64,000 bases of DNA. It comes from Bacillota bacterium (GTDB taxonomy: Bacteria; Bacillota; Sulfobacillia; Fermentithermobacillales; Fermentithermobacillaceae). The position numbers and the translations under genes were made by a program. Where the stretch lies: contig JAXGPX010000001.1 of NCBI GenBank assembly GCA_040766745.1, positions 187,950 to 251,949 of the forward strand, in the 5' to 3' direction. Below, in pieces: positions 13,074 through 30,600 of this stretch (positions are counted from its first letter, which is position 1; each line of letters begins with the position of its first letter). The notes below the pieces were generated by a model. The model did not search any database, was not told where the DNA came from, and worked only from the letters and a program-made list of their open reading frames with translations.

Positions 13074-15038
13074 TTATGCGTTTTTCGTGGCTGCCATGGA
13101 TTTGGTGCCTGTATTGCTTGATCTTGGATTTAGCAGACTGCATTCTCTGTGGAGTTCTCGAAGATCCCAGCGATTCCTTGAGTATATAGAGTATGCCCGG
13201 TTTCTCAGCTGCTCTACACCTACCCTATCGCCGGTTTCTTCTAAGAGGTTGGATAGCCATAGAGATGCGCACGCAATTTCCCTACTGGATTCGTCTTGCT
13301 GGAACAATTCTATAGATCTTGCTGCCAGATTCTTTGCTTGCCTGTAGGCACCTCTAGATCGTTCCATACAGGCTCTTAGCAAGAGTACCCAGCCAAGTTC
13401 AGTACGCGCGCTGCTTTCTAACATAGCCGGGATTCGTTCAAGGAGCGCAGATGCTTCCTCTATACGGCCTTCACGCAATAGGGCCTTTGCGACCTCAACC
13501 CCTGCATATGCCCAATGGCTTTGCAGATTATCTTGTAAGTACAGTTTCTGGGCTTTGTAGAGGTATTCAAGGGATTCACCGGTACGATCCTCACGATACA
13601 GAATCATCCCGAGGTTATGGTAAGCTACGGCGAAGTCCACTTGATATCTTTCTGGAGCTTTCTTGATTGACGAAAGATAGTAGCCCTTTGCCATCTTCCA
13701 GTTTCTGCGCTTGAACTCAATCAGGCCTGACATTAGGTCTGCATGTGAAGCAAGTCTATTGGCTTCCGGAGGTTTTTGGGACCGTATCCATCCTCGAGCT
13801 TGGTTTAGGGCGCTTTCGGCCTGCTCGATCTTGCTCTGGGCAAAACTAGCAGTCGCCAGGTTCATTAGGAGGTGGCCATAGTTTGGAGAGGATGGTTCTG
13901 CCGATTCCAATCCTTTCTTATACCATGAGGCGGCTCTGGAATAGTCTTTACCAGAGTACATGTTTCCCATGGCCAGGCACACATAAACAAGCATGTCTTC
14001 GAGTTGGGCGTCTTGAAAAACCTGAAATGCACAGCCCCCCATTAGATCGGCTCCGTCAAAATCCCCGTTGTGTCCAAGGCACGCTGCATACTTGCATAAG
14101 CACTTGCCTCTTTCTCGCTGATCATTCAAGACCCCAAAGGCTATAGATGCCTCATGCCAGGCCCTGGCGGCCATATCCCATAATTGGCTCTTTTCGTATT
14201 CGTTTGCCGCTTTCTGAAAGTTATGGACTGCTTTTTGGGTTAATCCTGCTTTGACCATCACCCGGGCTAAATCCAGAAAGAACCGTGGCTCATCATCGGG
14301 AAAGGCCTCCATGGCTGCTGACAGGTCCAGGTACATCAGTCTCAATTTATCCTGCGTATATTGGGATGGCAGCACATCTTTCAGGTTTCTTCTGAGAAGC
14401 ACTCGGTTTCCTGCGATATCTTCAATAACTGACACAAGATCAAGGGCTGCAAGTTCTTCGATGCTATCTGCAAACAGGTCCTTCTCCATCTGGACTATAG
14501 ATTCTATCCATTCCATTCTGGCGTTGCTGCCCGCCAAGGAACAGGCCAGCAAGAGCCTTCTTTGATCTGCATTCAGTCTGAGGAGAACGAACTCACGGTC
14601 TTTGCTTCTTTCTGAATCACTTTGCTCGAAGTATCCAAGTATCCTTGAAAAGTATTTCTTCACAGAATGGGCCTCGTGGTCTGAGAGGGCAGCAAGTGCC
14701 AGGTAAAAGGGAACTTGCCTGGACTCAAGATTGGCCCTTTCAAGGAAAGCATCAATGAGGCCTTTGGTTTCTGTCCTGAGATGGCCTTCTGAAACCGGCT
14801 CAAAACCGGCGTTGTCATAAGAAGATGGGTTTTCCGTGTATAGGTAAGACATAGGCAACCCGAAAAAGGCTGCAATCCGGTCTTTGTATTCATCTCCGAG
14901 GTTTCTTTTTGTACCATTTAGTACCAGAGATAAGTACGACTCAGACAGGCCGATTATCTCTGCAAGATCCTTAAGCCTGAGATTCCTATGAGTTAGCAAC
15001 GCCCTAATGTTTTGGGCGAAGATCTCAAAAGAAGACAA
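13074..15038 (-). CDS. Large (654 aa) transcriptional regulator with an N-terminal XRE-type HTH and a long TPR-like alpha-helical repeat domain, resembling RNPP (Rap/NprR/PlcR/PrgX) architecture
   Basis: N-terminus NIRALLTHRNLRLKDLAEIIGLSESYLSLVLNGTKRN is an XRE HTH. The remainder is alpha-helical repeat sequence (e.g. AVAYHNLGMILYREDRTGESLEYLYKAQKLY). Probable TTG start at 15038 with AAGGGTG 7 nt upstream. Confidence 0.75.
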   Translation of the reverse strand: MSSFEIFAQNIRALLTHRNLRLKDLAEIIGLSESYLSLVLNGTKRNLGDEYKDRIAAFFGLPMSYLYTENPSSYDNAGFEPVSEGHLRTETKGLIDAFLERANLESRQVPFYLALAALSDHEAHSVKKYFSRILGYFEQSDSERSKDREFVLLRLNADQRRLLLACSLAGSNARMEWIESIVQMEKDLFADSIEELAALDLVSVIEDIAGNRVLLRRNLKDVLPSQYTQDKLRLMYLDLSAAMEAFPDDEPRFFLDLARVMVKAGLTQKAVHNFQKAANEYEKSQLWDMAARAWHEASIAFGVLNDQRERGKCLCKYAACLGHNGDFDGADLMGGCAFQVFQDAQLEDMLVYVCLAMGNMYSGKDYSRAASWYKKGLESAEPSSPNYGHLLMNLATASFAQSKIEQAESALNQARGWIRSQKPPEANRLASHADLMSGLIEFKRRNWKMAKGYYLSSIKKAPERYQVDFAVAYHNLGMILYREDRTGESLEYLYKAQKLYLQDNLQSHWAYAGVEVAKALLREGRIEEASALLERIPAMLESSARTELGWVLLLRACMERSRGAYRQAKNLAARSIELFQQDESSREIACASLWLSNLLEETGDRVGVEQLRNRAYSIYSRNRWDLRELHRECSLLNPRSSNTGTKSMAATKNA

Positions 15039-15322
15039 GACTAATCACCCTTTGAAATGAGATATATTTATTCCCATAGGCCATATCGTAAAACAGGGAA
15101 AATCTCTGATTGTTGAGACTATTGATTCGATTATAGGACGAGTTCACTTATTGAACCAGCTTCTTGGGAGAAGTTCTTGGTTATGGGTAATTGTGTCGTA
15201 ACTTATCTGGAAAGTATGAGGGGTGAATGCCCTGGGGCCCCTCATATTCCAGGGGGATAGAGACGGCCGGGAGCTTGAATCAAGATGCCCCCGGCTTTCT
15301 GGTGACTGACGCTGTTGACTTC

Positions 15323-15604
15323 CTATGCTGGCATGCCGTCTGCCGGCGCCCCATTAGCATTGGGCGGGTCGTCTTCCACAGGGGGAAGCGGCAGGGGCAA
15401 GCCAGGCCCGTCAGCCAGCAGCCCATCTTGTGGCGTCCCGTTAGCGTTGGGTGGGTCGTCTTCCACAGGAGGAAGGGGCAGGGGCAAACCAGGCCCGCCA
15501 GTTTGGTACAGCACTTTGGCTCTGTCATCCAGAGTTACTGTCATTCCCGACCCAAGGCTGATTACGAGAGCCAGGCAAATAAGAAGGTAACGGAATTTTT
15601 TCAC
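15323..15604 (-). CDS. Small secreted protein (93 aa from the second GTG) with an N-terminal signal peptide and two tandem 29-aa proline-rich repeats (GPGLPLPLPPVEDDPPNANG[T/A]P[Q/A]DG)
   Basis: MKKFRYLLICLALVISLGSG is a classic signal peptide. The second GTG (15604) has GGAGG 8 nt upstream. Two 87-bp DNA repeats give exact 29-codon protein repeats. Co-oriented with, and 285 bp upstream of, the HTH-TPR regulator. Confidence 0.6.
   Translation of the reverse strand: MKKFRYLLICLALVISLGSGMTVTLDDRAKVLYQTGGPGLPLPLPPVEDDPPNANGTPQDGLLADGPGLPLPLPPVEDDPPNANGAPADGMPA
15347..15520. repeat. Two tandem 87-bp direct repeats (about 85% identical) inside the small secreted-protein gene
   Basis: cgccccattagcattgggcgggtcgtcttccacaggggg... 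and cgtcccgttagcgttgggtgggtcgtcttccacaggagg... with an 87-nt period. Confidence 0.8.
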
Positions 15605-15630
15605 GCGAAGCACCTCCGTTTTGCAGTCTC

Positions 15631-15654
15631 GGAAAATCTCTGTTCAGATTTTCC
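15631..15654. promoter_or_regulatory. Perfect 9-bp inverted repeat GGAAAATCT-N6-AGATTTTCC immediately upstream of the RBS of the small secreted-protein gene (candidate operator)
   Basis: Read directly: ggaaaatctctgttcagattttcc. A copy of the half-site GGAAAATCTCTG recurs at 15097-15108 in the regulator's own upstream region. Confidence 0.55.
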
Positions 15655-16027
15655 GGAAGCAGATTCGCTTCGCTGTAGTGCTTCGGATTGGGATAGAATG
15701 ACTTCCTGGTAGTACATCCACCTTTGGAAAAAGCCCCTTTTCAGAAAAAGAAGGCAGACACATGAGCAGTGCTGCCTCTAGAGGTGGATGCCGGCTGAGT
15801 ACTCGGCCGATTCTTCGGTCAATACACAATTCTACGAATAGTCAGGTTATTCCTCTAGAAGTATGTATTAAATTTGACAAAATGTACTATAATTCTGGTT
15901 CGATGATCTGATGGTATAGATGAAACACATGTGTTCTTATTGGCCAGGCATTTCTTTTCTGGGAGGCCATTGAATTGGGCGCAAGACGCATCTTATGTTA
16001 ACAATAACTCCGAAAATATTCTACCGG

Positions 16028-16513
16028 TTAAAGATGACCCATGATTTCGTCAAATACCAGCCGTTCTAGGATTGACACCGAGTTGCTAATAGCAGGCGAT
16101 AGGCCAATTCCAGGATGGCAATGGAAAGGCTCAATACCGTAGATGATTACCTCGGTGGGCTTGCCTTTTTTCAGCCTGGCCAGTTCAATTGCATCCAAAA
16201 TCGAAAAGCCATGGGAGTCTCGTGCCGTATCAGTGCAATCTGAGAACCCACTCTTCAAGTGGCCGGACGGAATTACTTTGTGTATCGTTCCAGGCTGCGT
16301 TTTAGCTCTGATGGCATCAATGATGATTAGAGTGTCTACTTGCTCGAGTTCAGTGGCGTGATTGAGTACCGAGCACCCCATATTCAGGAGAGTTACATTC
16401 TCAGGCCATGTACGTAATTTCAGTTTGGCAATTACGTGTTCACTTAGGCCGTCGTCGCCCATTAATGGATTTCCGATACCTGCAACGAGGATTTTCTTAT
16501 GCTCCTTGGTCAT
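16028..16513 (-). CDS. [NiFe]-hydrogenase maturation endopeptidase (HyaD/HybD/HycI family)
   Basis: MTKEHKKILVAGIGNPLMGDDGLSEHV...LIIIDA...GIEP matches the protease family. The internal ATG at 16513 has GAGGTG 6 nt upstream. Divergent from the hydrogenase structural genes. Confidence 0.8.
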   Translation of the reverse strand: MTKEHKKILVAGIGNPLMGDDGLSEHVIAKLKLRTWPENVTLLNMGCSVLNHATELEQVDTLIIIDAIRAKTQPGTIHKVIPSGHLKSGFSDCTDTARDSHGFSILDAIELARLKKGKPTEVIIYGIEPFHCHPGIGLSPAISNSVSILERLVFDEIMGHL

Positions 16514-16699
16514 TGCCCACACCTCTCGCTTCAATCCCGTCCGGTTCATCTTATGTCACCGGTTCATATAATGCTTATAAGGTCTATGTGATGAATCAAG
16601 GAACATCTCCTTGGTTCACTGTATTCTGGTTATCCGCCCTGCTTTCTTGAGGCCGGGCACCGTGCACATTATTTCACAGCGAGAAAAGGAGCTAGAGCG

Positions 16700-17647
16700 T
16701 TGAACCAGATTGAGTTTGAGCGGCTTTGCACAGAGTTAAAACACAGCCCTGAGAACAAATTGTCGAAGGAGATTTTTCGAGTATTGAAGCCGGCCGCGAG
16801 ATTCCCCTCGGGCTCTGGTTTCTGCACGAGAAAACTCCCTGCAATTTGGATTGAAACTAATGACAGCGGTGATAACAATATTTCTTTCATGAATACTACC
16901 TATCCGTATCTGGATCAGGTTTTCCAGAACATAATCGATCTTTTGTACAGCAATACTTTTATGGCAGCCCAGGGCCAGGACGCTTTAGAGATTCTACGAA
17001 GTTCAGCCTTGCGGTACGCCGGAGAATTTGTCCTCATAGTAGAGGGCGCCATACCTGTACGGGACAACGGGCTATACAGCATCATAGCGTACGCCGGATA
17101 TGAACCTCTCACTGCTTTGAAAGTCGTATCGTGGCTGGGGCCTCTTGCAAAATACGTGGTAACCATAGGTACTTGTGCAAGTTACGGCGGCCCCTCTGCT
17201 GCCCGGCCTAATGTGGCGGGAAATGTTCCTGTTAGCCAGGTTATGAACAGGGAGGTCGTAAAAGTCAGCGGCTGTCCTGTAAATCCTGATTGGTTTGTTG
17301 GAACCCTGGCTCACCTGCTGTTGTTTGGGGTACCCCGGCTAGATGAGGTTGGGCGGCCTGCAATGTTTTATGAGTTCACCGTCCACCGTCATTGTCAGCG
17401 CCGTTCATACTTTGATAGAGACGATTTCGCCGAGAAACTAGGGGACATAGAGTGCATGTTTTCCCAGGGTTGTGTAGGGCCGAAGACAGGGTCCGATTGC
17501 CCTTATCGCCTTTGGGTAAATCATGTAAGCTGGCCTGTAAAAGTAAACACCCCTTGCATAGGCTGCACCAACCCGGATTTTCCTGACGGATCGGCGCCGT
17601 TTTTTACACCAATGCCCCAAAAGAGCCAAAGGAGGAATATGGTATGA
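16700..17647 (+). CDS. [NiFe]-hydrogenase small subunit (no Tat signal). The first two proximal-cluster Cys are replaced (DSGD instead of CxGC).
   Basis: Conserved GTCASYGG, GCPVNPD and C-terminal medial/distal cluster motifs (HRHCQRR..., GCVGP..DCPY, PCIGCTNPDFPDG). TTG start with AAAAGGAG 7 nt upstream. No RRxFxK motif. Confidence 0.75.
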   Translation: MNQIEFERLCTELKHSPENKLSKEIFRVLKPAARFPSGSGFCTRKLPAIWIETNDSGDNNISFMNTTYPYLDQVFQNIIDLLYSNTFMAAQGQDALEILRSSALRYAGEFVLIVEGAIPVRDNGLYSIIAYAGYEPLTALKVVSWLGPLAKYVVTIGTCASYGGPSAARPNVAGNVPVSQVMNREVVKVSGCPVNPDWFVGTLAHLLLFGVPRLDEVGRPAMFYEFTVHRHCQRRSYFDRDDFAEKLGDIECMFSQGCVGPKTGSDCPYRLWVNHVSWPVKVNTPCIGCTNPDFPDGSAPFFTPMPQKSQRRNMV

Positions 17648-19128
17648 ACCGGAAATATGTGATGTTCAGTCCGGTTACACGATTGAGCGGGCTTCTCTCA
17701 GTTGAAACCATAATGGAGAACAATCAGGTTACCGAAGCAAACGTGAAAGGTACGTTGTTTAGAGGGTTTGAATGGATTATGAAGGGCAGGCATATAAGAG
17801 ATGCCGTGTACATGACCCAAAGAATTTGCGGGATTTGTTCTATGGCTCACGGAGCGTGTGCTTCTTACCTACTAGATGAATTGTATGATAATGAAATCAG
17901 TGAAAATGGCCAACTGCTCAGGAACATAATGTACGCATCAGATTTTCTGCAGAACCATATACGCCACTATTACCTTTTCAGCATGCCTGATTTCGTGAGG
18001 ATGCCGGAGCGTGCTCCGTTTGAAGGCCAGGATGTAAGTGATTTACGACTGAACCCTCGAGACAATGATACACTCGTAGATCATTACTTCGAAGCCATCA
18101 AGGCAGCTCAGGAAAGCCACCAGATTCTTACTTTGTTTGGAGGAAAAGCTCCTCACCAGCATAGCTTCGTTGAAGGCGGAGTTGCCGTGATTCCTACTGC
18201 AGACAAAATAGGCCAGGCTTTGGCCTTGATAAACAATATCAGGGCATTCGTCAGAGACCGAATGGTTCCTGATACTGAACTTATCGCACGGGTTTACAGG
18301 GATTACTTTTCTATAGGTGTGACCCCGGCCCGGCTTTTGAGCTTTGGGCTTTTCCGGTTTGGCCCCAAGAATGAGGTGTTTGTGTGGCGTGGGGGAGTGC
18401 TTAACGATGGCTGGCTTAGTTCAGTGGACATAAGCAAAATTCATGAGACAGTAACAAGGTCATGGTTTAGAGAAGAGGGATACCAATTTGAAGAAGATGA
18501 TGGCGGTTCATATTGTGAGGGTAAGCCGGAGACCCCAGTGGCCGGGTTGGACATTGGCCTGACTCAGCTAATCCCAGACCCGAATAAGCCAGGTGGGTAT
18601 TCATGGGTAAAGTCGGTGCAGTATTCAGGAGAGCCGTTTGAGGTAGGGCCACTTGCGAGAATGACGATAAATGGCTTCTACAGAGGCGGCATGTCTACCA
18701 TGGACCGAATCTATGCCCGAACTGTTGAGACTCTGCTAATTGCAGACTTGGTTAAAGAATGGCTTTGCCGCCTTAGAACCGGCCCGGCTCCAATTAGCCA
18801 GAAGGAAGAGCCTGAAAAGAATAAGGCTACTGCACTGACCGATGCAATGCGAGGATCTCTCCTTCACAGCGTTGACATGGAAGACGAAAAGGTAATATCG
18901 TACAACATTATTACTCCTACTACTTGGAACTTTTCACCCAAAGACGATAGGGGCCAGATGGGCCCTGTAGAGAATGCCCTGGTAGGCACAAGGGTAAGCA
19001 GCCGGCAGAACATCTTGACAGTGCTTGGAAGAATAATCAGGTCCTTTGACCCATGCTTGTCGTGTGGAACACATGTGCTGAGCCGTGAAGATGGTCTGCT
19101 CTCATCGATTGGGCAAGTGATTTTGTAG
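17644..19128 (+). CDS. [NiFe]-hydrogenase large subunit (catalytic), with a C-terminal extension after His for proteolytic maturation
   Basis: N-terminal RICGICSMAH and C-terminal DPCLSCGTHV Ni-binding motifs. The start overlaps the small-subunit stop (ATGA). The L1 RxEGH motif is divergent (TRLSGLL). Confidence 0.85.
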   Translation: MNRKYVMFSPVTRLSGLLSVETIMENNQVTEANVKGTLFRGFEWIMKGRHIRDAVYMTQRICGICSMAHGACASYLLDELYDNEISENGQLLRNIMYASDFLQNHIRHYYLFSMPDFVRMPERAPFEGQDVSDLRLNPRDNDTLVDHYFEAIKAAQESHQILTLFGGKAPHQHSFVEGGVAVIPTADKIGQALALINNIRAFVRDRMVPDTELIARVYRDYFSIGVTPARLLSFGLFRFGPKNEVFVWRGGVLNDGWLSSVDISKIHETVTRSWFREEGYQFEEDDGGSYCEGKPETPVAGLDIGLTQLIPDPNKPGGYSWVKSVQYSGEPFEVGPLARMTINGFYRGGMSTMDRIYARTVETLLIADLVKEWLCRLRTGPAPISQKEEPEKNKATALTDAMRGSLLHSVDMEDEKVISYNIITPTTWNFSPKDDRGQMGPVENALVGTRVSSRQNILTVLGRIIRSFDPCLSCGTHVLSREDGLLSSIGQVIL

Positions 19129-21471: not shown

Positions 21472-22464
21472 GTGATGATAGTTGTAACCGGTGCTCCAGG
21501 CCATCTGGGTAACAATTTGGTGAGGGCTCTGCTCAAGCGGAATTTCCGGGTAAGGTGCATGGTGCTTGCAGGAGAGAGCCTTGTTTCGCTGGAGGGGCTT
21601 GATGTTGAAATTGCAGAAGGCGATGTTCGAAATATTGATTCTTTGTACAGGGCTTTCGATGGAGCCGATGTTGTTTACCACCTTGCGTCGGTGATCAGCT
21701 TGTTGCCTGGCCGTTCCAGGCTTCTCGACGATGTGAATGTAAGAGGAGCCAGAAATGTAGCAGAAGCCTGCCTGAAAACAGGTGTTAGGCGGTTGGTATA
21801 TGCTAGTTCGATCCATGCTCTGGCTGAACCACCCCACGGCCATGTAGTTGATGAGTCATGTCCCTGCGATCCAAGTCGAATAGCCATGGCTTACAGCCGT
21901 TCAAAGGCCAGAGGCACTCTTGAAATCATGGAAGTCATGCAAAAAGGACTAGATGCGGTAGTTGTATTGCCAACCGGAATGATTGGCCCATATGATTTCA
22001 AACCTTCTGAGACAGGGAGGATGATTGTTGACTATGTTGCAGGCAGGATTCCTGCCCGGGTTGAAGGCGGGTATGATTTTGTTGATGTTAGGGATGTGGC
22101 AGAAGGCCATATTCTTGCAGCTGAAAATGGGAAGCCAGGGGAGAAATATATCCTGTCCGGTGAATGGATTTCCCTTGATGACATAATGAAGGAGATTTCC
22201 CTGGCAACCAATGTTCCGTTTCCTCGCTGGAGAGTACCGGTGGGCTTGGCATCTGCCATGGCTCTCGTATTTACCTCATACAGTATGATGACAGGTGCGA
22301 AAGTACTCCTAAACCAGGATTCTATCAGCACTCTTCGGAGCAATTCTCAGATATCATCTGAAAAGGCCCGAAGAGAACTTGGATATTCTTGCCGGCCTGT
22401 ACGAGAGAGTATTCGGGATACAGTGCGGTGGTTCCAAGAGGCACGGCTGCTGCCTAACAGATAG
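21472..22464 (+). CDS. NAD-dependent epimerase/dehydratase (extended SDR family; dihydroflavonol-reductase/HpnA-like)
   Basis: N-terminal VVTGAPGHLGNNLVRAL Rossmann motif. YxxxK-type SDR region (YSRSK). Confidence 0.75.
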   Translation: MMIVVTGAPGHLGNNLVRALLKRNFRVRCMVLAGESLVSLEGLDVEIAEGDVRNIDSLYRAFDGADVVYHLASVISLLPGRSRLLDDVNVRGARNVAEACLKTGVRRLVYASSIHALAEPPHGHVVDESCPCDPSRIAMAYSRSKARGTLEIMEVMQKGLDAVVVLPTGMIGPYDFKPSETGRMIVDYVAGRIPARVEGGYDFVDVRDVAEGHILAAENGKPGEKYILSGEWISLDDIMKEISLATNVPFPRWRVPVGLASAMALVFTSYSMMTGAKVLLNQDSISTLRSNSQISSEKARRELGYSCRPVRESIRDTVRWFQEARLLPNR

Positions 22465-22611
22465 GCGAGACGACCCTGGATACCGTCAGTCAGCAAGCGC
22501 CCCTAATGTTGCTTCTTTTACTGTGTTAAGCAGGCATGCTTCGTAGATAACCAGTTATGTATTATACTATGTGAAAATATCTTTTCAGAATAAAGGACTA
22601 GTGATTGTTCG

Positions 22612-23058
22612 ATGTATGATTTTCAGCTGATAGTAAGTTCTGCCGGGCGAGTTGTTCAAATTGGCAGAATATGTGTTAGCAATGCTTTAAAGGAGATCGG
22701 CTTGAGCAGTGCCGAAGCGGACGTTTTGATGTTTTTGTATATGAACGGGGATGGCATTCGCCAAGATGATATTGTTGCAGGGGTTGAGGTAAGCAAACCT
22801 GCAATTTCCAGGACAATTCATTCTTTGGAAAGCAAAGGTTATGTAATACGTAAGCAAAATACTGAAGACAAGAGATCTTATGTTGTATCGCTGACCGACA
22901 GAGCCAGAGAAGCTGAAGGGCTCGTCAAGAAGCAATACCGGGATCTTGTAAATGCAGCTTGTTTGGGAATTCCTGAAGAAAAAGTTAAGGAAGTAATCGA
23001 AGTATTCAAGGACGTTGTGAACAACATGGAGAAATACCGTATAGAGAGGTTTTCGTGA
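22612..23058 (+). CDS. MarR-family transcriptional regulator
   Basis: Winged-HTH core (DVLMFLYMNGDGIRQDDIVAGVEVSKPAISRTIHSLESKGYVIRKQNTEDKRS). Confidence 0.75.
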   Translation: MYDFQLIVSSAGRVVQIGRICVSNALKEIGLSSAEADVLMFLYMNGDGIRQDDIVAGVEVSKPAISRTIHSLESKGYVIRKQNTEDKRSYVVSLTDRAREAEGLVKKQYRDLVNAACLGIPEEKVKEVIEVFKDVVNNMEKYRIERFS

Positions 23059-23128
23059 ACCCATGCATTGGCGCTTCTGCCGATAAAGGTGGGCACAGGT
23101 ATTTTCTGCACCTTTAATGGAGGTTTTT

Positions 23129-24334
23129 ATGCTTACAGGGCAATTGCTTGAGCTTATTTATGAGGCTGCAAGTATTCAGCGTTGGAACGATCATATAAGG
23201 CCTGCTCAGGGGTTTACCGAACTCGACAAGCAGGCCCATAAAATGGTATATGCCTATGTACTCGGCAAATTTGAAGAAGCCGGTGGTACTTTGCAGTTCG
23301 ATTGGACCAAACTTATCGAAGGCGGATTGTTTGAGTTCCTTCATAGAATAAAGCTTACCGACATTAAGCCCCCGGTGTTTCACAAAATAATGGAAGAGAA
23401 AGGGCATGAGATTAACCGCTGGGTCCTTGGCCAGTATGAAGACCCTCTTAGCCGGATTGATTCTCATCTTTACTTGCGCTTTCGGGAGTATCTTGCCAAT
23501 GACAAGTACAGTTTCGGCGAAAAACAGATACTCAAGGCTTCTCATTACTTGGCGACTAATTGGGAGTTTCAACATATATACAGGCTAAATGCAGGTTTGT
23601 ATGGGCTTGAAGGCGAGAAAGAGAGCATAGAGGGCAGGTTAAGCGAACACGGTTCGCTTATCGGCGTCAGAACGCTGGCTTTGGATAGGAACATTCATAA
23701 TTTCATGGATCTTGTAGGCCAGCTCCGGTTTCAGCAAAGATGGGGGCAGTCGCCAAGAATACCTCAGACATCGGTCCTTGGGCATATGCTTATAGTTGCT
23801 CTAATTGCTTTCTTTGCTTCACTTGACCTGGGTGCTTGTCCCAAGCGGATGTACAATAACTACTTTTGTGGATTGTTTCACGATTTACCCGAAGTTTTGA
23901 CCCGGGATATTGTTGCTCCCGTAAAGCGGTCAATTCCTGATTTGGACAAGATAATCAAGGGCATTGAGTCTTCCTGGTTTGATGAGCGGATCTACCCGCT
24001 GCTGCCTGATTCATGGCACAACGAGATCAGGTACTTTGTAGAAGATGAATTTGCAGACCGCATTCGGGTTAATGGGAAGCGGGTCAATGCAACAATCACC
24101 TGTGAATATAACAGAGATTCCTACGACCCCCTGGACGGAACCGTGGTCAAAGCCTGTGACCAGCTTGCTGCTTATGCAGAGGCATTCCTTTCTATAAGGC
24201 ACGGTATCAGATCAAAGGCCCTAAAAGACGGCCTCTCAATCTATAGCCTCTACCGGGATCGGAAAAACATGGTCTCTGGAGTGGATTTCGGCACTGTCTT
24301 CAGTCACTTCAACCCCAACGAACTCGGCTTGTGA
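23129..24334 (+). CDS. HD-domain phosphohydrolase-like protein with a long N-terminal extension (YfbR/5'-deoxynucleotidase-like HD core)
   Basis: Motifs LGHMLIVALIA...GLFHDLPEVLTRD (H..HD...D). The second ATG (23129) has GGAGG 5 nt upstream. Confidence 0.6.
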   Translation: MLTGQLLELIYEAASIQRWNDHIRPAQGFTELDKQAHKMVYAYVLGKFEEAGGTLQFDWTKLIEGGLFEFLHRIKLTDIKPPVFHKIMEEKGHEINRWVLGQYEDPLSRIDSHLYLRFREYLANDKYSFGEKQILKASHYLATNWEFQHIYRLNAGLYGLEGEKESIEGRLSEHGSLIGVRTLALDRNIHNFMDLVGQLRFQQRWGQSPRIPQTSVLGHMLIVALIAFFASLDLGACPKRMYNNYFCGLFHDLPEVLTRDIVAPVKRSIPDLDKIIKGIESSWFDERIYPLLPDSWHNEIRYFVEDEFADRIRVNGKRVNATITCEYNRDSYDPLDGTVVKACDQLAAYAEAFLSIRHGIRSKALKDGLSIYSLYRDRKNMVSGVDFGTVFSHFNPNELGL

Positions 24335-25143: not shown

Positions 25144-25541
25144 ACAAAAACAGGGTTTTGGGATTCACGCTATACCTAAAGTAACGGAATTTGCTGAAGT
25201 TTGACTGCAATTCATTAAGGTAGAGAAGACCAGACGACGAAACGGGAAATCTGCGTAAACAAAGGGTTTCCATGGTTCGTCGTTGTTTTTTTGATTCCTT
25301 TTTAACATGAAAAGCCGAAATCACGCGGGAAAGCCGTGTATTATGTTAATATAGTGAAACGAGTTCTATACGTGCGACAAAGAAGGTATGCAATATAGTA
25401 TAAAACAATGAGTGGTATTACTGTTTTATGTTGATTATGGTCTAATTACACAGTACGACTTCAAGAATTATGGTTCTTGCAACCGCCGAATCTCCGAATG
25501 GGCCAGGGGTGGTGCGTTTCTACTGAGTGGGAGGTCATAGA

Positions 25542-26951
25542 ATGAGCCGGCTTAGAACTGTGAACGGGCGCATTCTCTCCGTTATCGGATTCTCCTTCCT
25601 CTTTGCTTATATCCTGTCTTTCCTGTTTGAGGGGCAGGTCCTCTACAGTCTCTTGGAGCTCCGTAAAGCCGAGGCCTCCGGTTACATACTGGCAGCTATT
25701 GTTTCACATTTTGTGGGACTGTTCTCTTGCGGCTATCTTGCGAAGTCTCCAATCGTGGCAAAATATACAATGTTTGGCGGTATGGGTGTATGTTTCATTG
25801 TGACTTTACCGTTCTTTTTTACTTCATCAGCGCTGTGGGCAATAGCGTTGCTCGTCAGTGGGTATGTGTCAGGCTGTGCCGTGGCGTCGTGGGGCTATTT
25901 CCTCAAGGCATTTACTCCAAAGAATGAACGCATCAAATCCTGCGCGGACGTTCTGATCTACTCTAATATTATAATGATTGCAGTCAATGTGGTGGCCATG
26001 AATCGGTCACCATTTTTCGGACTTGCTCTTTCTATGTTTTGCCTTGTGGCGGGTATGGCGTTCATTTGGGTGGTGCCTACCGATACGAACAATGGCTGGC
26101 GGAAGGAAGAAAGCAAACCGAGCGGCGACATACTAAAACCGTTGATGTTGCTATGCCTATTTGTCTTTATCATAACGATCGACTCTGGCCTTATGTATCA
26201 GGTCATAAATCCCAGTTTTGAGCATCTTACAGGCCTCGTGAGTTGGTATTGGGCCGTGCCATATATTGTAGCCCTCGCCATTATGCGGAACCTGCCAATG
26301 AAGGTCAAACGTTCAAGTATTTTGTATGTTGGTGTGGCAATGATTATGGGGGCATTCATAAGCTTTATGCTGCTCGGACGGAACGCTTCGGATTATCTTG
26401 TCGTGGATACCCTGATGCTCGGCGCATGCGGTATTTTCGATCTGTTCTGGTGGAGTATCATCGGGGAGATGCTGGACTATACTGAAAATCCGGTCAAGGT
26501 GTTTGGCATTGGGCTCTCATCAAATGTGTTCGGAGTGCTTTGCGGCGGTGTTGTCGGAATGGCGGTAACTTCCTTTCAACTCCCTGGCGCAGAGGTGGCG
26601 GTCATTGCCCTCACGATTGTATGTGTCACGCTAGTTATGCTACCGCCGCTCAACCGTCAGCTTATTATGCTGCTTAAGAATCATGCTTATCTTGCTGCCT
26701 ATGATAGCATGAGCGAAAACCAGCAGACGGCTATCCTTCATCAGATAAAAACCCTTGTTCCTCTGACCGACCGGGAGCAGGAGGTATTACAGCTTATCCT
26801 TTTCGGCAAATCCAACCGTGAAATTGCCGAAACGTTGTTCCTCAGCGAAAGTACTATCAAAACCCACACAAGAAATATTTTCTCAAAATATGATGTCCGC
26901 AGCCGTGCGGAGCTTATTAGCATCCTGCTTAGAAACCAATCCGATTCGTAA
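25542..26951 (+). CDS. Membrane-embedded LuxR-family regulator: N-terminal polytopic membrane domain (about 10-12 TM) fused to a C-terminal LuxR/GerE HTH
   Basis: The C-terminus LTDREQEVLQLILFGKSNREIAETLFLSESTIKTHTRNIFSKYDVRSRAEL is a LuxR HTH. The N-terminal 380 aa are hydrophobic helices. ATG 25542 has GGGAGG 7 nt upstream. Confidence 0.7.
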   Translation: MSRLRTVNGRILSVIGFSFLFAYILSFLFEGQVLYSLLELRKAEASGYILAAIVSHFVGLFSCGYLAKSPIVAKYTMFGGMGVCFIVTLPFFFTSSALWAIALLVSGYVSGCAVASWGYFLKAFTPKNERIKSCADVLIYSNIIMIAVNVVAMNRSPFFGLALSMFCLVAGMAFIWVVPTDTNNGWRKEESKPSGDILKPLMLLCLFVFIITIDSGLMYQVINPSFEHLTGLVSWYWAVPYIVALAIMRNLPMKVKRSSILYVGVAMIMGAFISFMLLGRNASDYLVVDTLMLGACGIFDLFWWSIIGEMLDYTENPVKVFGIGLSSNVFGVLCGGVVGMAVTSFQLPGAEVAVIALTIVCVTLVMLPPLNRQLIMLLKNHAYLAAYDSMSENQQTAILHQIKTLVPLTDREQEVLQLILFGKSNREIAETLFLSESTIKTHTRNIFSKYDVRSRAELISILLRNQSDS

Positions 26952-27600: not shown

Positions 27601-27654
27601 AAGGGTAGTTCTTCTCACGTTGTTTGTAGGATCAGGAAAGAGGAGATGGTTATA

Positions 27655-30600
27655 ATGCAGAAAAACTACAGGAGAATACGAAGGCACCTATGTATCCTAT
27701 TGCTCGTGTGCATAGTGTCTACCTTTCCTATAGTGACAGTACCGGTGTTTGCGGCAGAAGGTACCGGAGTCACTGTAACTAATGTTCCAAGCATGCTCTG
27801 GGGAGGGCTTGGGCAGTATGTTGAATACGAAATGGACGGCATAAAATACCGTACTGACACGGCTTCCAGTGCGATAAACCGGTTGGCTTGGAGTCGCATG
27901 ACACAGGAAGATCGTCGCAAAACTTATGATAGGTTGTTTACCACGGCTGCAAGAAAGGCTGCCTTCGGAGAAGATGGGTTTGCCGATATCGTAAGCTGGA
28001 TTCGTGAAACCAACGAATGGTTCAAAGCCAATAGGCTTTGGAAGGACAGGATTGCCAACCGGGATTACCCTGAGCTACATGCGGTATTTAGCGATTCGGC
28101 GTCTTTGAGTACCGTCTATTCAGATTGGGACACGTTTAGGCTCTACTCTATCCCGCAGAATGTACCTCCGCGTAAACTGGAAGTAGAAGAGTTTGATAGG
28201 GCGCTGGCGGACGTAGAACTAAACTATGGGATCGGGCGACAATTCTATCAAAAAGTAGTGGATATGCACGCTAAGAATATCGGTGCTGCTGTGTCCTTTA
28301 CCATAATGCAATGTACCCAGATGCTCAGTGACATGCTTTTTGTTCCCAGCGTAGTCCAGGGAGCAAGTGTTGCTACCTCCGGCATGTTTGCTGATGTGAC
28401 AAATGTATTGTTGCAAGTTGTTGGGCTTGACGGCGGTTCCATCGCCGAAAAGGTAAACAAAGCTCTTGAGGGAGAGTCGGTGCAACTTACCGTGGGAGAG
28501 CAAATCAAGCTTCGCGCCGCGGTGATTGACACCTACGTTATTCTTGCACAGCGGAGCAAGAATGATATGGACGCGAGCATGAATGCTTTGCGTGCTGCCC
28601 ATACCAAAATAGAAGAGTTGTCTCAGGCAATTGAATACTATGACCGGCAACTTGAGCTAGAGAAGCAGCAGGCAAAGAAAAACTACCAGACAAATCTGGA
28701 TGAGACTCTTGTCAGCCCTACGCCAACTGAGCCGGGAGAAAGCGATGAGGTTTACAGCACCCTGGCTTTTATGTGGAAGACAGAAGCAGAGCTTAAACGG
28801 GATCTGTTTCATAATAATTTCAACGAATGGCTGTCCGAAAACAGTATTGAAGATGGTTATGCGTACCCTCAGGCGGCAGAACTGGTATTTGCCGAAGTGT
28901 TGGCACAAAAGGCAGTCTTGGATCAAGAAGTTGCAGAAAAGGTGGATATAATCTGCGATAAGATCAAGACCGCTTACACCAATGCAAACGGAAAGGTAGA
29001 AGCGTTAGAAGCAGAGCTTGGCGGGCTGCAGAACCAAGTGAATTCCAACTTGCCAGAAGATGAAACTGATCTCATCAGGGTTCCCGTGGGGGATACCTTC
29101 TTTTACGGCACAGAAGTTTTCGCCCCTGAGCTTGAAAACTACGCTAATTCTGGGCGGGCATATGATGACTATTTCCAGGAACTACAGGCCCACATTTCTG
29201 AATATAAGACGAAAGTCGCTGATCTGTTGGCGAGTGTTAAGGCATTAAAAGACGGGACTTCGGGGTTCTACGGAGAGATCGAAAAAGATGTTCAGGATGT
29301 GATGCTTTATCTTGATCTACTGGACAGCCTGGCGGAAAATTATTCGACTTTATATCTCAATGCAGTTTGGAAGTTATACAATGACTCAGGCCAAGACATC
29401 GATCCAAACTACGATCAAATTCCTTTTATCAACCCGTATAATGATGATGAAGGAGCATACCGCACAAACGGTTTTGAGATAGCAGTTGATCAAAATTGCC
29501 TGTCGGCTGAAGTGTATACACCTGATGCATTAGCGGTCACTCGTCCAACTGGGGTATATGATCAAGCGTACACGTTGTATCAGGAACTCTCGGATATGGA
29601 AGAGGAACTAGATAGTGCATATTCTGCAAGCTTTCAAAATGATGCAGCTTACAAGGCGGGAAGAACAAAGTACTACGAGGAAATGGACAACTGGCTTTTG
29701 GCATACAAGACGCTAGAACAGAAGATGGCCAACGCTCTTGGTAAGATAAAGAGTATCACAGACGCTTACGAGGCGTCATGGGATGGTACTTTCTTTCTCG
29801 GAAGCTATGACTACATCAGTTATCAGCCTTACCTTTACAACACCGGTTTGGTATCTGTTTCCGCCTTCGACGTGGCGGGCTTGCGCGAACATATTCGCGG
29901 CGGCGGGAATACTTCATCCCTATACACAAAACTCAAGGATATTGAGCGCAAAGCGGAGATTAATGAAGCGGTGGCGGCGGACCTTATCGGGCAGATTGGT
30001 GCTCTAAACATTGAAATGGAGCAGATGAGAGATGATACACTAGACAATTACGCAGTAAGCAAGGGAATGCCGTGCAAGAATTTCTACTCCCTTCGAAGTG
30101 AGTACGGCCTTGACGATAGATGGGGCAATTTGACTAGAAGCAGCGACGACGTCTTGGCCTACTTCAACACCTGCGATATCCCCCAAATCTGCGATATTTT
30201 GCAGGGAGAAACCGATGACGTTGTCTTCATGCAAAACGCCATTAAGGAAATTCGAGGCTATCTTGATGCCGATACGGTGGCCACCGTTCCCGTCAGTAAT
30301 CGCCTGTACGACATTTACCGGAAGGCTACGGGCATTAAGGACATATATACCGGCGGCACCTACAACAATTATGGCCTTCTGACCGAAGCACAGCATACGG
30401 AACTTCTGTATCTGTATGCAAATCCCAATGATGCCGATGACATTTACAACACGATGAATTCCGTCCGGTACAAACACGAAGACGTAAGTTACACCTATCC
30501 GCCTTCACCACATGATGGTGTGGATCAATTTGGCCCTGTTGGGGAGCCCACTTCTACTGCGGCATTTCCTGGAACGATGGCGGTGCAGGCGCCCATCTAC

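What the first reader, a model, noticed from the sequence alone, without database searches (positions are those of the whole stretch)
13074..15660. Secreted proline-rich tandem-repeat pro-peptide gene, palindromic operator and 654-aa HTH-TPR regulator: a candidate peptide-signalling cassette
A 93-aa protein (15323-15604, minus strand) has a canonical signal peptide and a mature part that is almost entirely two exact-phase 29-aa proline-rich repeats (GPGLPLPLPPVEDDPPNANG[T/A]P[Q/A]DG). It is preceded by a perfect 9-bp inverted repeat (GGAAAATCT-N6-AGATTTTCC) abutting its RBS. It lies 285 bp upstream of, and is co-oriented with, a very large XRE-HTH + TPR regulator (13074-15038). That combination of a secreted repeat pro-peptide and an RNPP-like HTH-TPR receptor resembles the logic of Gram-positive peptide quorum sensing, but with an unusual gene order, receptor size and multi-copy pro-peptide.
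Basis: partly seen in the sequence, partly recalled or inferred. Interest (0 to 1): 0.75.

Follow-up and report, generated by a model that had tools for sequence, protein, structure and literature searches.

The report
Secreted repeat peptide with cytoplasmic receptor
A small secreted proline-rich repeat peptide gene is always paired with a large DNA-binding, peptide-binding-type regulator in an uncultured class of spore-forming bacteria, which most likely makes it an undescribed cell-to-cell peptide signalling system that standard detectors miss.

Summary
A 93-aa ORF encodes a signal peptide followed by two proline-rich repeats. A perfect 10-bp inverted repeat lies in front of it. A 654-aa HTH+TPR regulator lies 284 bp downstream on the same strand.

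Comparative genomics supports the peptide-regulator pairing. About 20 distinct loci of Candidatus Fermentithermobacillia, in at least three genomic contexts and with regulators down to 32% identity, all carry a homologous small gene directly upstream. Repeat number varies from 1 to 4. No copy was found without the regulator. Repeat copies differ mostly at synonymous sites. Two more distant receptor relatives carry unrelated small signal-peptide genes immediately downstream, which is the commonest order in known RRNPP systems.

The likeliest function is peptide quorum sensing of the RRNPP type (cytoplasmic TPR receptors of Gram-positive bacteria for secreted peptides). The receptor is not a typical RRNPP member. 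It is too long, and it carries a lid-like helical domain, a winged helix and a TPR module homologous to the post-ATPase part of STAND proteins.

The "palindromic operator" idea is not supported. The inverted repeat occurs only in the closest group, has a 5-7 nt loop, and keeps pairing through a compensatory change and a G·U pair. It looks like a 5'-UTR RNA hairpin.

I also found conserved control elements: a sigma-H-type promoter, an invariant 27-nt leader, an intrinsic terminator, and a fixed-length upstream region. No experiment supports any function.

The parts
16014..16038 (-). Left boundary motif GTCATCTTTAACCGGTAGAATATTT. This is where conservation of the cassette begins. It overlaps the stop codon of the upstream HycI protease gene.
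   Evidence: The pattern GTCnnCTTTAAC-N6-[A/C]ATATTT is present in 18 of 19 leaders, with ATC in place of GTC in L017. It always lies 238-241 nt upstream of the core. Its function is unknown.
15855..16013 (-). Fixed-length, variable-sequence upstream region. In the other groups it contains a long imperfect inverted repeat.
   Evidence: The length is constant in 19 loci. The long hairpin, tested on the 13 loci outside the window's group, has 71% of cells paired against 32-44% in slid controls, but shuffles reach this value 39-64 times in 500, so the test is inconclusive. No ORF is conserved on either strand. Rfam has no match.
15829..15854 (-). Sigma-H-type promoter boxes AGGA (15851-15854) and GAAT (15829-15832), separated by an 18-nt spacer.
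   Evidence: AGG[A/G/T]-N17-18-GAA[T/A/C/G] lies at position -54/-55 from the core in 19 of 19 loci, with a variable spacer sequence. The SigH motif AGGA/GAAT with a 17-18 nt spacer is taken from PMC12456013. This is an inferred promoter, not a mapped one.
15783..15809 (-). Invariant leader core CGGCCGAGTACTCAGCCGGCATCCACC. It contains the palindrome GAGTACTC and an anti-SD-like CCACCUC.
   Evidence: It is nearly invariant in 19 loci. RNAalifold pairs CACCU(U/C) with the SD GGAGGUG. In the window it pairs with a downstream GGUGGAUG. Its role, as an RNA element or as a DNA operator, is not resolved.
15744..15778 (-). Leader hairpin followed by a U-run (intrinsic terminator or attenuator), upstream of the peptide gene.
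   Evidence: A GC-rich hairpin followed by TTTTT(T) is present in all loci. Compensatory pairs occur in the stem: GC:10/AU:4 at one position and GC:12/CG:3 at another. The window copy is weaker and was not picked up by the simple scan.
15630..15655 (-). It is most likely a 10-bp RNA hairpin in the 5'-UTR.
   Evidence: Searches show its presence. It is conserved only in WIN and L014-L017, with a loop of 5-7 nt, one compensatory change and one U·G pair. It forms a hairpin in the MFE and centroid folds.
15611..15617 (-). Shine-Dalgarno GGAGGTG of the peptide gene.
   Evidence: GGAGGTG (GGAGGTT in L028) lies 6-9 nt before the start codon in all 17 loci examined.
15323..15604 (-). Pro-peptide gene (93 aa). 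It encodes a signal peptide (about aa 1-25, 15530-15604), repeat 1 (aa 37-65, 15410-15496) and repeat 2 (aa 66-93, 15326-15409).
   Evidence: The family has 22 members in 5.8 billion proteins, with 1-4 repeats. Between repeat copies, synonymous differences outnumber amino-acid changes (126 versus 83 codons in 13 loci).
15266..15295 (-). Hairpin GCCGGGGGC...GCTCCCGGC after the peptide gene. It is a terminator in other groups and lacks a good U-run in the window.
   Evidence: A CCGGGA..TCCCGG hairpin follows the stop codon in all loci. In groups 2 and 3 and in L028 it has a U-run that ends about 20 nt before the regulator start codon.
15130..15135 (-). TATAAT box, a candidate promoter of its own for the regulator gene.
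   Evidence: cCTATAATc is conserved in WIN and L014-L016, within the 165-377 nt gap. This is inferred only.
13074..15038 (-). Receptor/regulator gene (654 aa). Domains: XRE HTH (aa 1-66, 14841-15038); helical bundle plus winged helix (aa 86-215, 14394-14783); about 10 TPR-like repeats (aa 229-634, 13137-14354).

Best explanation
This is a two-gene cell-cell peptide signalling cassette of the RRNPP type in logic, belonging to an undescribed family. All steps below are inferred.
1. A sigma-H-type promoter transcribes a short leader that ends in an intrinsic terminator. Transcripts that read through express the pro-peptide gene.
2. The 93-aa pre-pro-peptide is exported by the Sec pathway through its signal peptide.
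3. Extracellular proteases release one peptide per repeat. Each repeat has a conserved Pro-rich part and a species-variable tail.
4. At high density the peptide is re-imported, presumably by an oligopeptide permease.
5. The peptide binds the concave face of the roughly 10-repeat TPR superhelix of the cytoplasmic 654-aa regulator. This changes DNA binding by its N-terminal XRE helix-turn-helix, and possibly by the winged helix.
6. The regulator gene is expressed at a lower level, either by read-through of the hairpin or terminator after the peptide gene (obligatory in the other groups) or from its own TATAAT box in the window's group.

The receptor appears to be built from a STAND-like lid, winged-helix and TPR sensor module without the ATPase, fused to an XRE HTH.
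For: Shown:
1. The pairing is conserved beyond synteny. There are three contexts: SIR2|pep|reg|aminotransferase|SpoIVA; NYN|pep|reg|adh_short; and glmS-glmM-ybbR-cdaA|pep|reg|PK_C-GPI-rapZ-cofD-whiA. Regulator identities range from 98% down to 32%.
2. The small-protein profile finds only 22 proteins in 5.8 billion. Every one I could place, including all three new ones whose contigs I looked up, lies directly upstream of the regulator.
3. The small ORF is a real gene. All 17 loci examined have a GGAGGTG-type SD at fixed spacing. All have a conserved signal-peptide anatomy. Repeat copies diverge mainly at synonymous sites: window 10 versus 4, L016 11 versus 1, total 126 versus 83.
4. Repeat number varies from 1 to 4, even with an identical regulator (L009 has 4, L010 has 2). 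This fits a dosage-type polyprotein precursor.
5. Distant receptor relatives carry non-homologous small genes with signal peptides immediately downstream, the commonest RRNPP order. L156 has MKRLAYLFLIFTLFSIIALGHGNASSSYQVAGEQWPTVSYVG, with an RBS and a terminator. L160 has ...AAPVYAATSVDPIWPTPPQVDPIWP, with VDPIWP twice.
7. Sigma-H-type boxes are present in 19 of 19 loci. B. subtilis phr genes are sigma-H controlled (McQuade 2001, listed in PMC8236291).
8. Four of the five computational RRNPP criteria of PMC10075063 are met.
Against: - There is no experimental evidence of expression, secretion, processing, import or binding.
- The structural similarity of the TPR domain is generic. Eukaryotic Pins/LGN and designed TPRs score as high as NprR.
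- No RRNPP-specific family model is matched. NCBIfam AimR scores E 0.056, far below its cut-off.
- The receptor is 654 aa, against 285-473 aa for validated receptors, and it has an extra winged-helix domain.
- The window's own repeat tails (TPQDGLLAD / APADGMPA) are less hydrophobic than typical pheromones.
- No oligopeptide permease was seen in the parts of the window that I annotated.
- Two distant relatives (L157, L159) have no obvious neighbouring peptide gene.
- All close family members belong to one class-level lineage, so part of the co-occurrence may be inherited linkage.
- The regulator's DNA target is unknown.
Confidence: 0.6

Rival explanations
1. The small secreted proline-rich protein is an effector or target of the regulator, not its ligand. 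It could be an envelope, spore-surface or matrix spacer protein whose expression the HTH-TPR protein controls in stationary phase. The TPR domain would then sense something else, such as a protein partner or a metabolite.
For: - Pro-rich acidic repeats are common in wall-associated and surface proteins (general knowledge).
- The window lies beside spoIVA.
- The sigma-H-type promoter fits a stationary-phase or sporulation product.
- TPR similarity is generic.
- No import system was identified.
Against: - The mature part is only about 30-100 aa, and it has no anchoring motif such as LPXTG, SLH or a lipobox.
- Repeat number ranges from 1 to 4, and single-copy 53-60 aa forms exist.
- Distant receptor homologues are paired with completely different small secreted peptides of 42-45 aa that are not plausible structural proteins.
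- The small gene is never found away from the receptor.
Confidence: 0.2
2. The small ORF is a cis-acting regulatory upstream ORF. Polyproline stretches (PPP, PPG, DPP) stall ribosomes, and with the N-terminal export signal the nascent chain would act like SecM, MifM or VemP. This would tune read-through or translation of the downstream regulator according to EF-P or secretion status.
For: - The ORF is rich in known EF-P-dependent stalling motifs, visible directly in the sequence.
- It has an N-terminal signal sequence, as monitoring substrates do.
- It sits upstream of and co-oriented with the regulated gene.
- In the other groups the regulator can only be expressed by read-through of the terminator after the ORF.
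Against: - The terminator hairpin starts about 40 nt or more after the stop codon, beyond the reach of a ribosome stalled inside the ORF.
- The gap is 165-377 nt in the window's group, which has its own TATAAT box.
- Repeat number and the position of the Pro tracts relative to the stop codon vary.
- The downstream gene is not a secretion factor.
- Distant relatives have the peptide gene downstream of the receptor, where it cannot act as a uORF.
Confidence: 0.07
3. The small protein is a multi-core precursor of a ribosomally synthesised, post-translationally modified peptide, or of a secreted antimicrobial peptide. The regulator would be its pathway-specific activator.
For: The tandem units, each with a conserved part and a variable part, resemble multi-core RiPP precursors (general knowledge).
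Against: - No modifying enzyme, dedicated transporter or immunity gene is conserved next to the cassette in any of the three contexts.
- The precursor has a Sec signal peptide rather than a RiPP leader.
Confidence: 0.05

Closest known systems
RRNPP/RRNPPA peptide quorum-sensing systems, especially NprR-NprX, PlcR-PapR and Rap-Phr
   Same: - An adjacent pair of a small Sec-exported pro-peptide gene and a cytoplasmic TPR receptor.
- An N-terminal XRE-type HTH on the receptor, as in NprR, PlcR, Rgg and AimR.
- Tandemly duplicated pheromone units within the pro-peptide, known for Rap, NprR, PlcR and AimR (PMC11343458, PMC9765709).
- A sigma-H-type promoter in front of the peptide gene, as for B. 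subtilis phr genes.
- NprR and Rap are among the best structural matches.
   Different: - The receptor is 654 aa, against 285-473 aa.
- A helical bundle and a winged helix lie between the HTH and the TPR domain.
- The TPR domain has about 10 repeats.
- No RRNPP-specific profile is matched.
- The peptide gene lies upstream of the receptor and is separated from it by a hairpin or terminator.
- The repeat units are long (22-32 aa) and Pro-rich.
- A conserved leader with a terminator lies upstream.
- The family is confined to Candidatus Fermentithermobacillia plus a few distant relatives.
STAND-type regulators with a TPR sensor (MalT-like AAA_16-TPR proteins, AfsR)
   Same: - The winged-helix plus TPR_MalT-like module (profile positions about 145-620) aligns with the region following the AAA_16 ATPase in many 1000-2000 aa proteins.
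- The N-terminal model matches ORC/Cdc6 lid+WH and NB-ARC winged-helix domains.
- AfsR is among the PDB sequence matches.
   Different: - There is no P-loop NTPase domain, and an XRE HTH is present instead.
- The gene is paired with a secreted small peptide gene, which is not a known feature of STAND regulators.
Polyprotein pheromone precursors such as yeast alpha-factor (MF-alpha1)
   Same: A signal peptide is followed by several tandem copies of a unit, and copy number differs between strains (general knowledge).
   Different: This is an analogy only. There is no homology, no Kex2-type dibasic sites, and the system is bacterial with a cytoplasmic receptor.
Secretion-monitoring arrest peptides (SecM, MifM, VemP)
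   Same: A small upstream ORF with an N-terminal export signal, containing stalling-prone residues.
   Different: The geometry does not allow a stalled ribosome to affect the downstream hairpin. The downstream gene is a transcription factor. The repeats are variable.

Membership tests
RRNPP(A) quorum-sensing system (criteria of PMC10075063) | A small pro-peptide gene (10-100 aa) directly adjacent to the receptor gene | tested here: met
   The ORF is 93 aa and lies 284 nt from the receptor with no gene in between. The same arrangement is seen in about 20 distinct related loci.
RRNPP(A) quorum-sensing system (criteria of PMC10075063) | The pro-peptide carries a Sec-type signal sequence | tested here: met
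   The N-terminus has 2-3 K/R residues followed by a hydrophobic core of at least 13 aa (KD 2.6-3.3), conserved in all homologues. SignalP was not available, so this is a crude test.
RRNPP(A) quorum-sensing system (criteria of PMC10075063) | Receptor length about 250-500 aa (validated receptors: 285-473 aa) | tested here: not met
   The receptor is 654 aa, and family members are 616-680 aa.
RRNPP(A) quorum-sensing system (criteria of PMC10075063) | The receptor contains TPR-type peptide-binding repeats | tested here: met
RRNPP(A) quorum-sensing system | Sequence or profile homology to a recognised subfamily (Rap, Rgg, NprR, PlcR, PrgX, AimR, ComR...) | tested here: inconclusive
   No subfamily model passes its threshold. 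NCBIfam AimR scores E 0.056 and 12.5 bits against a cut-off of 70. Rap chains appear in the PDB profile search at 2e-6 to 1.6e-3, but among generic TPR proteins.
RRNPP(A) quorum-sensing system | The mature peptide is re-imported (Opp) and binds the receptor, changing its activity | not testable with these tools
   This needs biochemistry or genetics. No opp genes were seen in the annotated parts of the window, and the rest of the genome is unavailable.
STAND NTPase regulators (MalT/AfsR-like) | A P-loop NTPase (NOD / AAA_16 / NB-ARC) domain | tested here: not met
   There is no ATPase family hit. Residues 86-153 are a three-helix bundle only.
STAND NTPase regulators (MalT/AfsR-like) | A winged-helix arm followed by a TPR/SUPR sensor domain | tested here: met
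   A winged helix spans aa 157-215. TPR_MalT hits occur in homologues. Positions 145-620 align to the post-AAA_16 region of P0075, P0108, P0120 and P0150.
Translation-arrest monitoring peptides (SecM/MifM/VemP type) | The stall site lies close enough to a downstream hairpin that sequesters the SD of, or terminates before, the regulated gene | tested here: not met
   The hairpin begins about 40 nt or more after the stop codon. The gap is 284 nt in the window.
RiPP precursor | Conserved neighbouring tailoring enzyme or dedicated exporter | tested here: not met
   The neighbours differ between the three contexts and are housekeeping genes.
Known RNA families (Rfam 15) for the conserved leader | A match to a covariance model | tested here: not met
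   The only hit is a chance Ocean-VII match at E 0.026, inside the regulator gene. Nothing matches in 15600-16100. No tRNA or tmRNA was found.

The most novel reading that the evidence does not exclude
The receptor family arose independently of classical RRNPP proteins. A STAND-type lid, winged-helix and TPR sensor lost its ATPase, gained an XRE HTH, and became a cytoplasmic receptor for unusually long (about 20-30 aa) polyproline-type pheromones. These are cut from a polyprotein precursor with a variable number of units. The whole system is gated by a sigma-H promoter and a conserved leader/attenuator RNA that is not in Rfam. That would be a new class of bacterial peptide signalling, and a second evolutionary route to cytoplasmic peptide sensing.
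Probability: 0.25. Interest if true: 0.8.

Novelty: new variant of a known kind. Interest (0 to 1): 0.6.

Why it matters
If the cassette is a working signalling system, three things follow.
- Cytoplasmic peptide quorum sensing would extend to a deep, uncultured, thermophilic and spore-forming class of Bacillota (Candidatus Fermentithermobacillia, found in biogas reactors and coal-fire vents).
- Current detectors miss such systems by design. RRNPP_detector keeps receptors of 250-500 aa, and this family is 616-680 aa.
- It would show that a STAND-like winged-helix plus TPR sensor, without an ATPase, can serve as a peptide receptor.

The long Pro-rich repeat units would be an unusual pheromone chemistry. 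The conserved leader (sigma-H boxes, invariant 27-mer, terminator, fixed-length upstream region) offers a compact and testable example of layered transcriptional and RNA control of a signalling peptide.

In practice, the finding gives a defined ligand-receptor pair to test in vitro without cultivating the organism.

Tried and rejected
1. I scanned metagenome contigs for the leader core (CGAGTNCTCAGCCGGNA). None had the extended element. The pattern was too short for that collection, and the scan was wasted.
2. Rfam in E-value mode over 14900-16200 gave no family for the leader. ARAGORN found nothing.
3. I tested the leader and upstream region as a structured RNA. RNAalifold on all groups recovers only the terminator, a small invariant hairpin and the anti-SD/SD pairing. 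The long hairpin is better than slid controls but not better than shuffles. RNA versus DNA is therefore unresolved.
4. I looked for a protein-coding explanation of the fixed-length 239-nt region. No conserved ORF exists on the reverse strand, and the forward-strand ORFs are inconsistent.
5. The third half-site AGATTTTCC near the regulator start is not conserved in L014-L016. I treat it as chance.
6. Tandem Repeats Finder reported nothing for the two-copy repeat. The repeat finder did find it.
7. The simple promoter/terminator scan missed the leader terminator and the TATAAT box. I defined these from the alignments instead.
8. Foldseek against afdb50 was not available.
9. A lipoprotein reading of the conserved Cys in the signal peptide is rejected. 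The Cys sits at position 10-11 with V/I at -1, which is not a lipobox.
10. A mobile-element reading of the cassette is rejected. There is no room for a right-end repeat: 13 nt separate the regulator stop from the convergent aminotransferase stop, and in group 2 the regulator overlaps the next gene.

Full report
**1. The observation**

- **Small ORF.** It lies at 15323-15604 on the minus strand. It starts with GTG, seven bases after a GGAGGTG Shine-Dalgarno. The 93-aa product has an MKKFR n-region and a 13-residue hydrophobic core.
- **Repeats.** There are two in-phase repeats, aa 37-65 and 66-93. At DNA level they form an 87-nt direct repeat with 83% identity. The first 20 residues of the two copies are identical. 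The copies differ at 10 synonymous and 4 amino-acid-changing codons.
- **Inverted repeat.** It is 10 bp and perfect (15630-15639 / 15646-15655) with a 6-nt spacer. It is unique in the window, where 0.06 matches are expected. It ends 13 nt before the SD.
- **Regulator.** It lies at 13074-15038 (minus strand) and is 654 aa. Pfam finds HTH_3 at residues 11-66 and several TPR families. It has no transmembrane-like segment.
- **Neighbours.** These are an aminotransferase and spoIVA on one side, and a HycI-type protease and [NiFe] hydrogenase genes on the other.

**2. Conservation of the pairing**

A single-sequence search with the small protein found only five relatives. The regulator found 18, down to 31% identity.

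Looking up the contigs showed the same arrangement in close relatives that share synteny (L001, L004). It also appeared in regulators of 37-47% identity sitting in two entirely different neighbourhoods:
- between an NYN-domain gene and a short-chain dehydrogenase (L007);
- between cdaA-ybbR-glmM-glmS and PK_C-GPI-rapZ-cofD-whiA (L009-L011).

In each case a small co-oriented ORF lies directly upstream. It encodes a signal peptide followed by tandem proline-rich repeats.

A scan of one genome per species found 18 loci, most of those that are named belonging to Candidatus Fermentithermobacillaceae. Sixteen have enough upstream DNA, and all 16 carry such an ORF with a GGAGGTG-type SD at constant spacing. 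The truncated contig L013 and the most divergent member L027 (32% identity) also have it. L030 matches only the N-terminal 206 residues and was not counted.

The small proteins are homologous to each other, aligning through the signal peptide and an (A)DGPxYPxPIxPP...NNxI unit. A profile of them retrieves only 22 proteins from 5.8 billion. The three new ones whose contigs I looked up all lie next to a 638-645 aa HTH-TPR gene.

Repeat number ranges from one (53-60 aa proteins) to four. Two samples with the identical regulator protein differ in having two or four repeats. Over 13 loci, repeat copies within a gene differ at 126 synonymous against 83 amino-acid-changing codons. The copies are therefore old and individually under purifying selection. 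The ORF is translated and each copy matters.

**3. Distant relatives**

An exhaustive HMM search of 1.84 billion representative proteins found only 25 proteins at E ≤ 1e-30. They include a few full-length but distant relatives.
- **P0049** (680 aa; locus L156) has, 22 nt after its stop, a 42-aa gene with its own RBS and terminator. It encodes MKRLAYLFLIFTLFSIIALGHGNASSSYQVAGEQWPTVSYVG.
- **P0052** (639 aa; L160 and L161) has, 3 nt after its stop, a 43-aa gene. It encodes a signal peptide followed by ATS-VDPIWP-TPPQ-VDPIWP.
- **P0050 and P0051** show no obvious partner.

Homologous receptors paired with non-homologous small secreted peptides, here in the commonest receptor-then-peptide order, are the hallmark of RRNPP-type systems. 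This is hard to reconcile with the small protein being a structural product. A P-x-W-P / PP(V/I)WPP theme recurs in several of the peptides.

**4. The receptor**

The AlphaFold model has mean pLDDT 85. It shows:
- an XRE HTH (aa 1-66);
- a disordered linker;
- a three-helix bundle (aa 86-153);
- a winged helix (aa 157-215);
- about ten TPR-like helix pairs (aa 229-634).

No curated RRNPP model is matched.

A separate model of the first 228 residues (pLDDT 77.6) matches ORC/Cdc6 lid plus winged-helix modules, NB-ARC winged-helix domains, MarR/ArsR winged helices and small XRE repressors.

In the HMM search, many 1000-2000 aa proteins align to profile positions of about 145-620, starting near their residue 400. 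Four that I checked have an AAA_16 ATPase at about residues 140-300 just before that region.

The receptor therefore looks like the arm-plus-sensor part of a STAND (MalT-like) protein with an XRE HTH in place of the ATPase. It is not a typical RRNPP architecture. This step is inferred from homology, not demonstrated by phylogeny.

**5. Control region**

Aligning the DNA upstream of the small gene from 15-19 loci revealed conserved non-coding elements shared by all three genomic contexts.
- **Promoter boxes.** The two boxes AGG[A/G/T] and GAA[T/A/C/G] are separated by 17-18 variable bases. They lie at the same position in 19 of 19 loci. This matches the SigH promoter motif (AGGA / GAAT, 17-18 nt spacer; PMC12456013). 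In Bacillus subtilis the phr pheromone genes are sigma-H controlled (McQuade et al. 2001, as listed in PMC8236291).
- **Core.** About 20 nt downstream lies an almost invariant 27-mer (window 15783-15809), CGGCCGAGTACTCAGCCGGCATCCACC.
- **Leader terminator.** Next comes a GC-rich hairpin with compensatory substitutions, followed by a U-run.
- **Rest of the 5'-UTR.** A further 40-130 nt follow, and then the SD.
- **Possible anti-SD.** RNAalifold pairs the CCACCU(U/C) of the core with the SD. In the window the same bases pair with a downstream GGUGGAUG around the terminator.
- **Hairpin after the small gene.** A second hairpin (CCGGGA..TCCCGG) follows the stop codon in every locus. In the other groups it carries a U-run ending about 20 nt before the regulator's start codon, so the regulator must be expressed by read-through there. 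In the window's group the gap is longer and contains a conserved TATAAT box.
- **Upstream region.** Upstream of the promoter boxes, the distance to a left-boundary motif (GTCnnCTTTAAC-N6-MATATTT; window 16014-16038, overlapping the HycI stop codon) is constant at 238-241 nt, although the sequence varies.

A long imperfect inverted repeat in this upstream region is better paired than slid controls but not better than shuffles. It has no Rfam match and no conserved ORF. I could not decide whether this region acts as DNA or as RNA.

**6. The palindrome**

It is deleted in the others, although the HTH recognition region (SESYLSLVLNG) is invariant family-wide. Three further observations bear on it:
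- its loop is 5, 6 or 7 nt;
- pairing is maintained by a two-sided change (T-A in the window, C-G in L017);
- pairing is also maintained by a U·G pair in L015.

It forms a hairpin in the predicted fold of the 5'-UTR. A lineage-specific mRNA hairpin explains this better than an operator does. The family-wide invariant elements (the core and the left motif) are better operator candidates.

**7. Interpretation and rivals**

The best-supported reading is a peptide signalling cassette that works like an RRNPP system. The steps would be sigma-H-dependent and attenuated transcription, Sec export, release of one peptide per repeat, re-import, and binding to the TPR superhelix of the HTH regulator. My confidence is about 0.6. 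Every mechanistic step is inferred.

The main rivals are these.
- **The small protein is a regulated secreted product rather than the ligand (about 0.2).** The distant relatives' unrelated mini-peptides and the absence of any anchoring motif argue against it.
- **A polyproline/secretion-monitoring upstream ORF (about 0.07).** The geometry after the stop codon, and the downstream position of the peptide gene in distant relatives, argue against it.
- **A RiPP precursor (about 0.05).** No tailoring genes are present.

**8. Comparison and novelty**

Four of the five computational RRNPP criteria (PMC10075063) are met. The receptor-length criterion is not, which also explains why such systems would escape RRNPP_detector. 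Multi-copy pro-peptides are already known (PMC11343458, PMC9765709).

The new aspects are:
- the receptor architecture (HTH, lid-like bundle, winged helix and a long TPR domain, related to STAND sensors);
- the long Pro-rich units;
- the peptide-first gene order with terminators on both sides of the peptide gene;
- the conserved leader;
- the phylogenetic home in an uncultured class.

I found no paper describing this family. I rate it a new variant of a known kind, with interest 0.6.

Noticed in passing
window 15744-16038 (minus strand); the same element occurs in L014-L029, L151, L153 and L154: A conserved non-coding module lies upstream of the peptide gene in all three genomic contexts. It consists of a left motif, a region of constant length (238-241 nt) but variable sequence, sigma-H-type boxes, an invariant 27-mer, and an intrinsic terminator. 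It has no Rfam match. It may be an attenuator or small RNA together with upstream binding sites. The left motif overlaps the HycI stop codon in the window.
   Followed up: partly
L009 5539-5949 versus L010 5683-5949: Two metagenome samples encode the identical 659-aa regulator (P0016). The peptide gene has four repeats in one sample and two in the other, so repeat copy number is polymorphic within a species.
   Followed up: partly
L020 (DUUV01000052) and L029 (DUUV01000023): Two different cassettes, with different repeat peptides, are assigned to the same MAG (AS08sgBPME_276). This is either two paralogous systems in one genome or a mixture of strains in the bin.
   Followed up: no
L156 4334-4462; L160 2127-2258 (also L161 2064-2195): Distant full-length relatives of the regulator (P0049, P0052) have unrelated 42-45 aa genes with signal peptides immediately downstream. 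One of them contains a tandem VDPIWP motif. P0051 (L157) is instead followed by FtsX/ABC transporter genes.
   Followed up: partly
L009-L011, L153 and L154: the genes after the regulator: In the cdaA-context group the regulator's stop overlaps or nearly abuts a 185-188 aa protein with only a PK_C domain. This is followed by GPI, rapZ, cofD/yvcK and whiA. These may be co-transcribed and therefore candidate targets.
   Followed up: no
window 16028-19128: A HycI-type maturation protease and [NiFe] hydrogenase small and large subunit genes sit between the cassette and the genes that flank it in relatives (SIR2, DUF1232, epimerase, HD/YfbR-like). In the window the epimerase and HD genes are at 21472-24334. 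This looks like an insertion or rearrangement specific to this genome.
   Followed up: no
window 27646-33237 (+): A very large ORF (1863 aa) whose only Pfam match is C-terminal SLH domains. It is a giant S-layer or cell-surface protein that is otherwise unannotated.
   Followed up: no
window 25527-26951 (+) and 49288-52910 (+): A 474-aa protein with only a C-terminal GerE/LuxR HTH and an unassigned N-terminal 400 aa. Further along is an NADH-dependent [FeFe] hydrogenase pair (NuoF-like plus Fe_hyd_lg_C).
   Followed up: no
window 15610-15700 (minus strand): In the predicted fold of the window's 5'-UTR, GAAGCAC upstream of the hairpins pairs with GUGCUUC between the SD and the start codon. Related loci have different upstream sequences complementary to their SD region. 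This may be SD sequestration, but it has not been tested statistically.
   Followed up: partly
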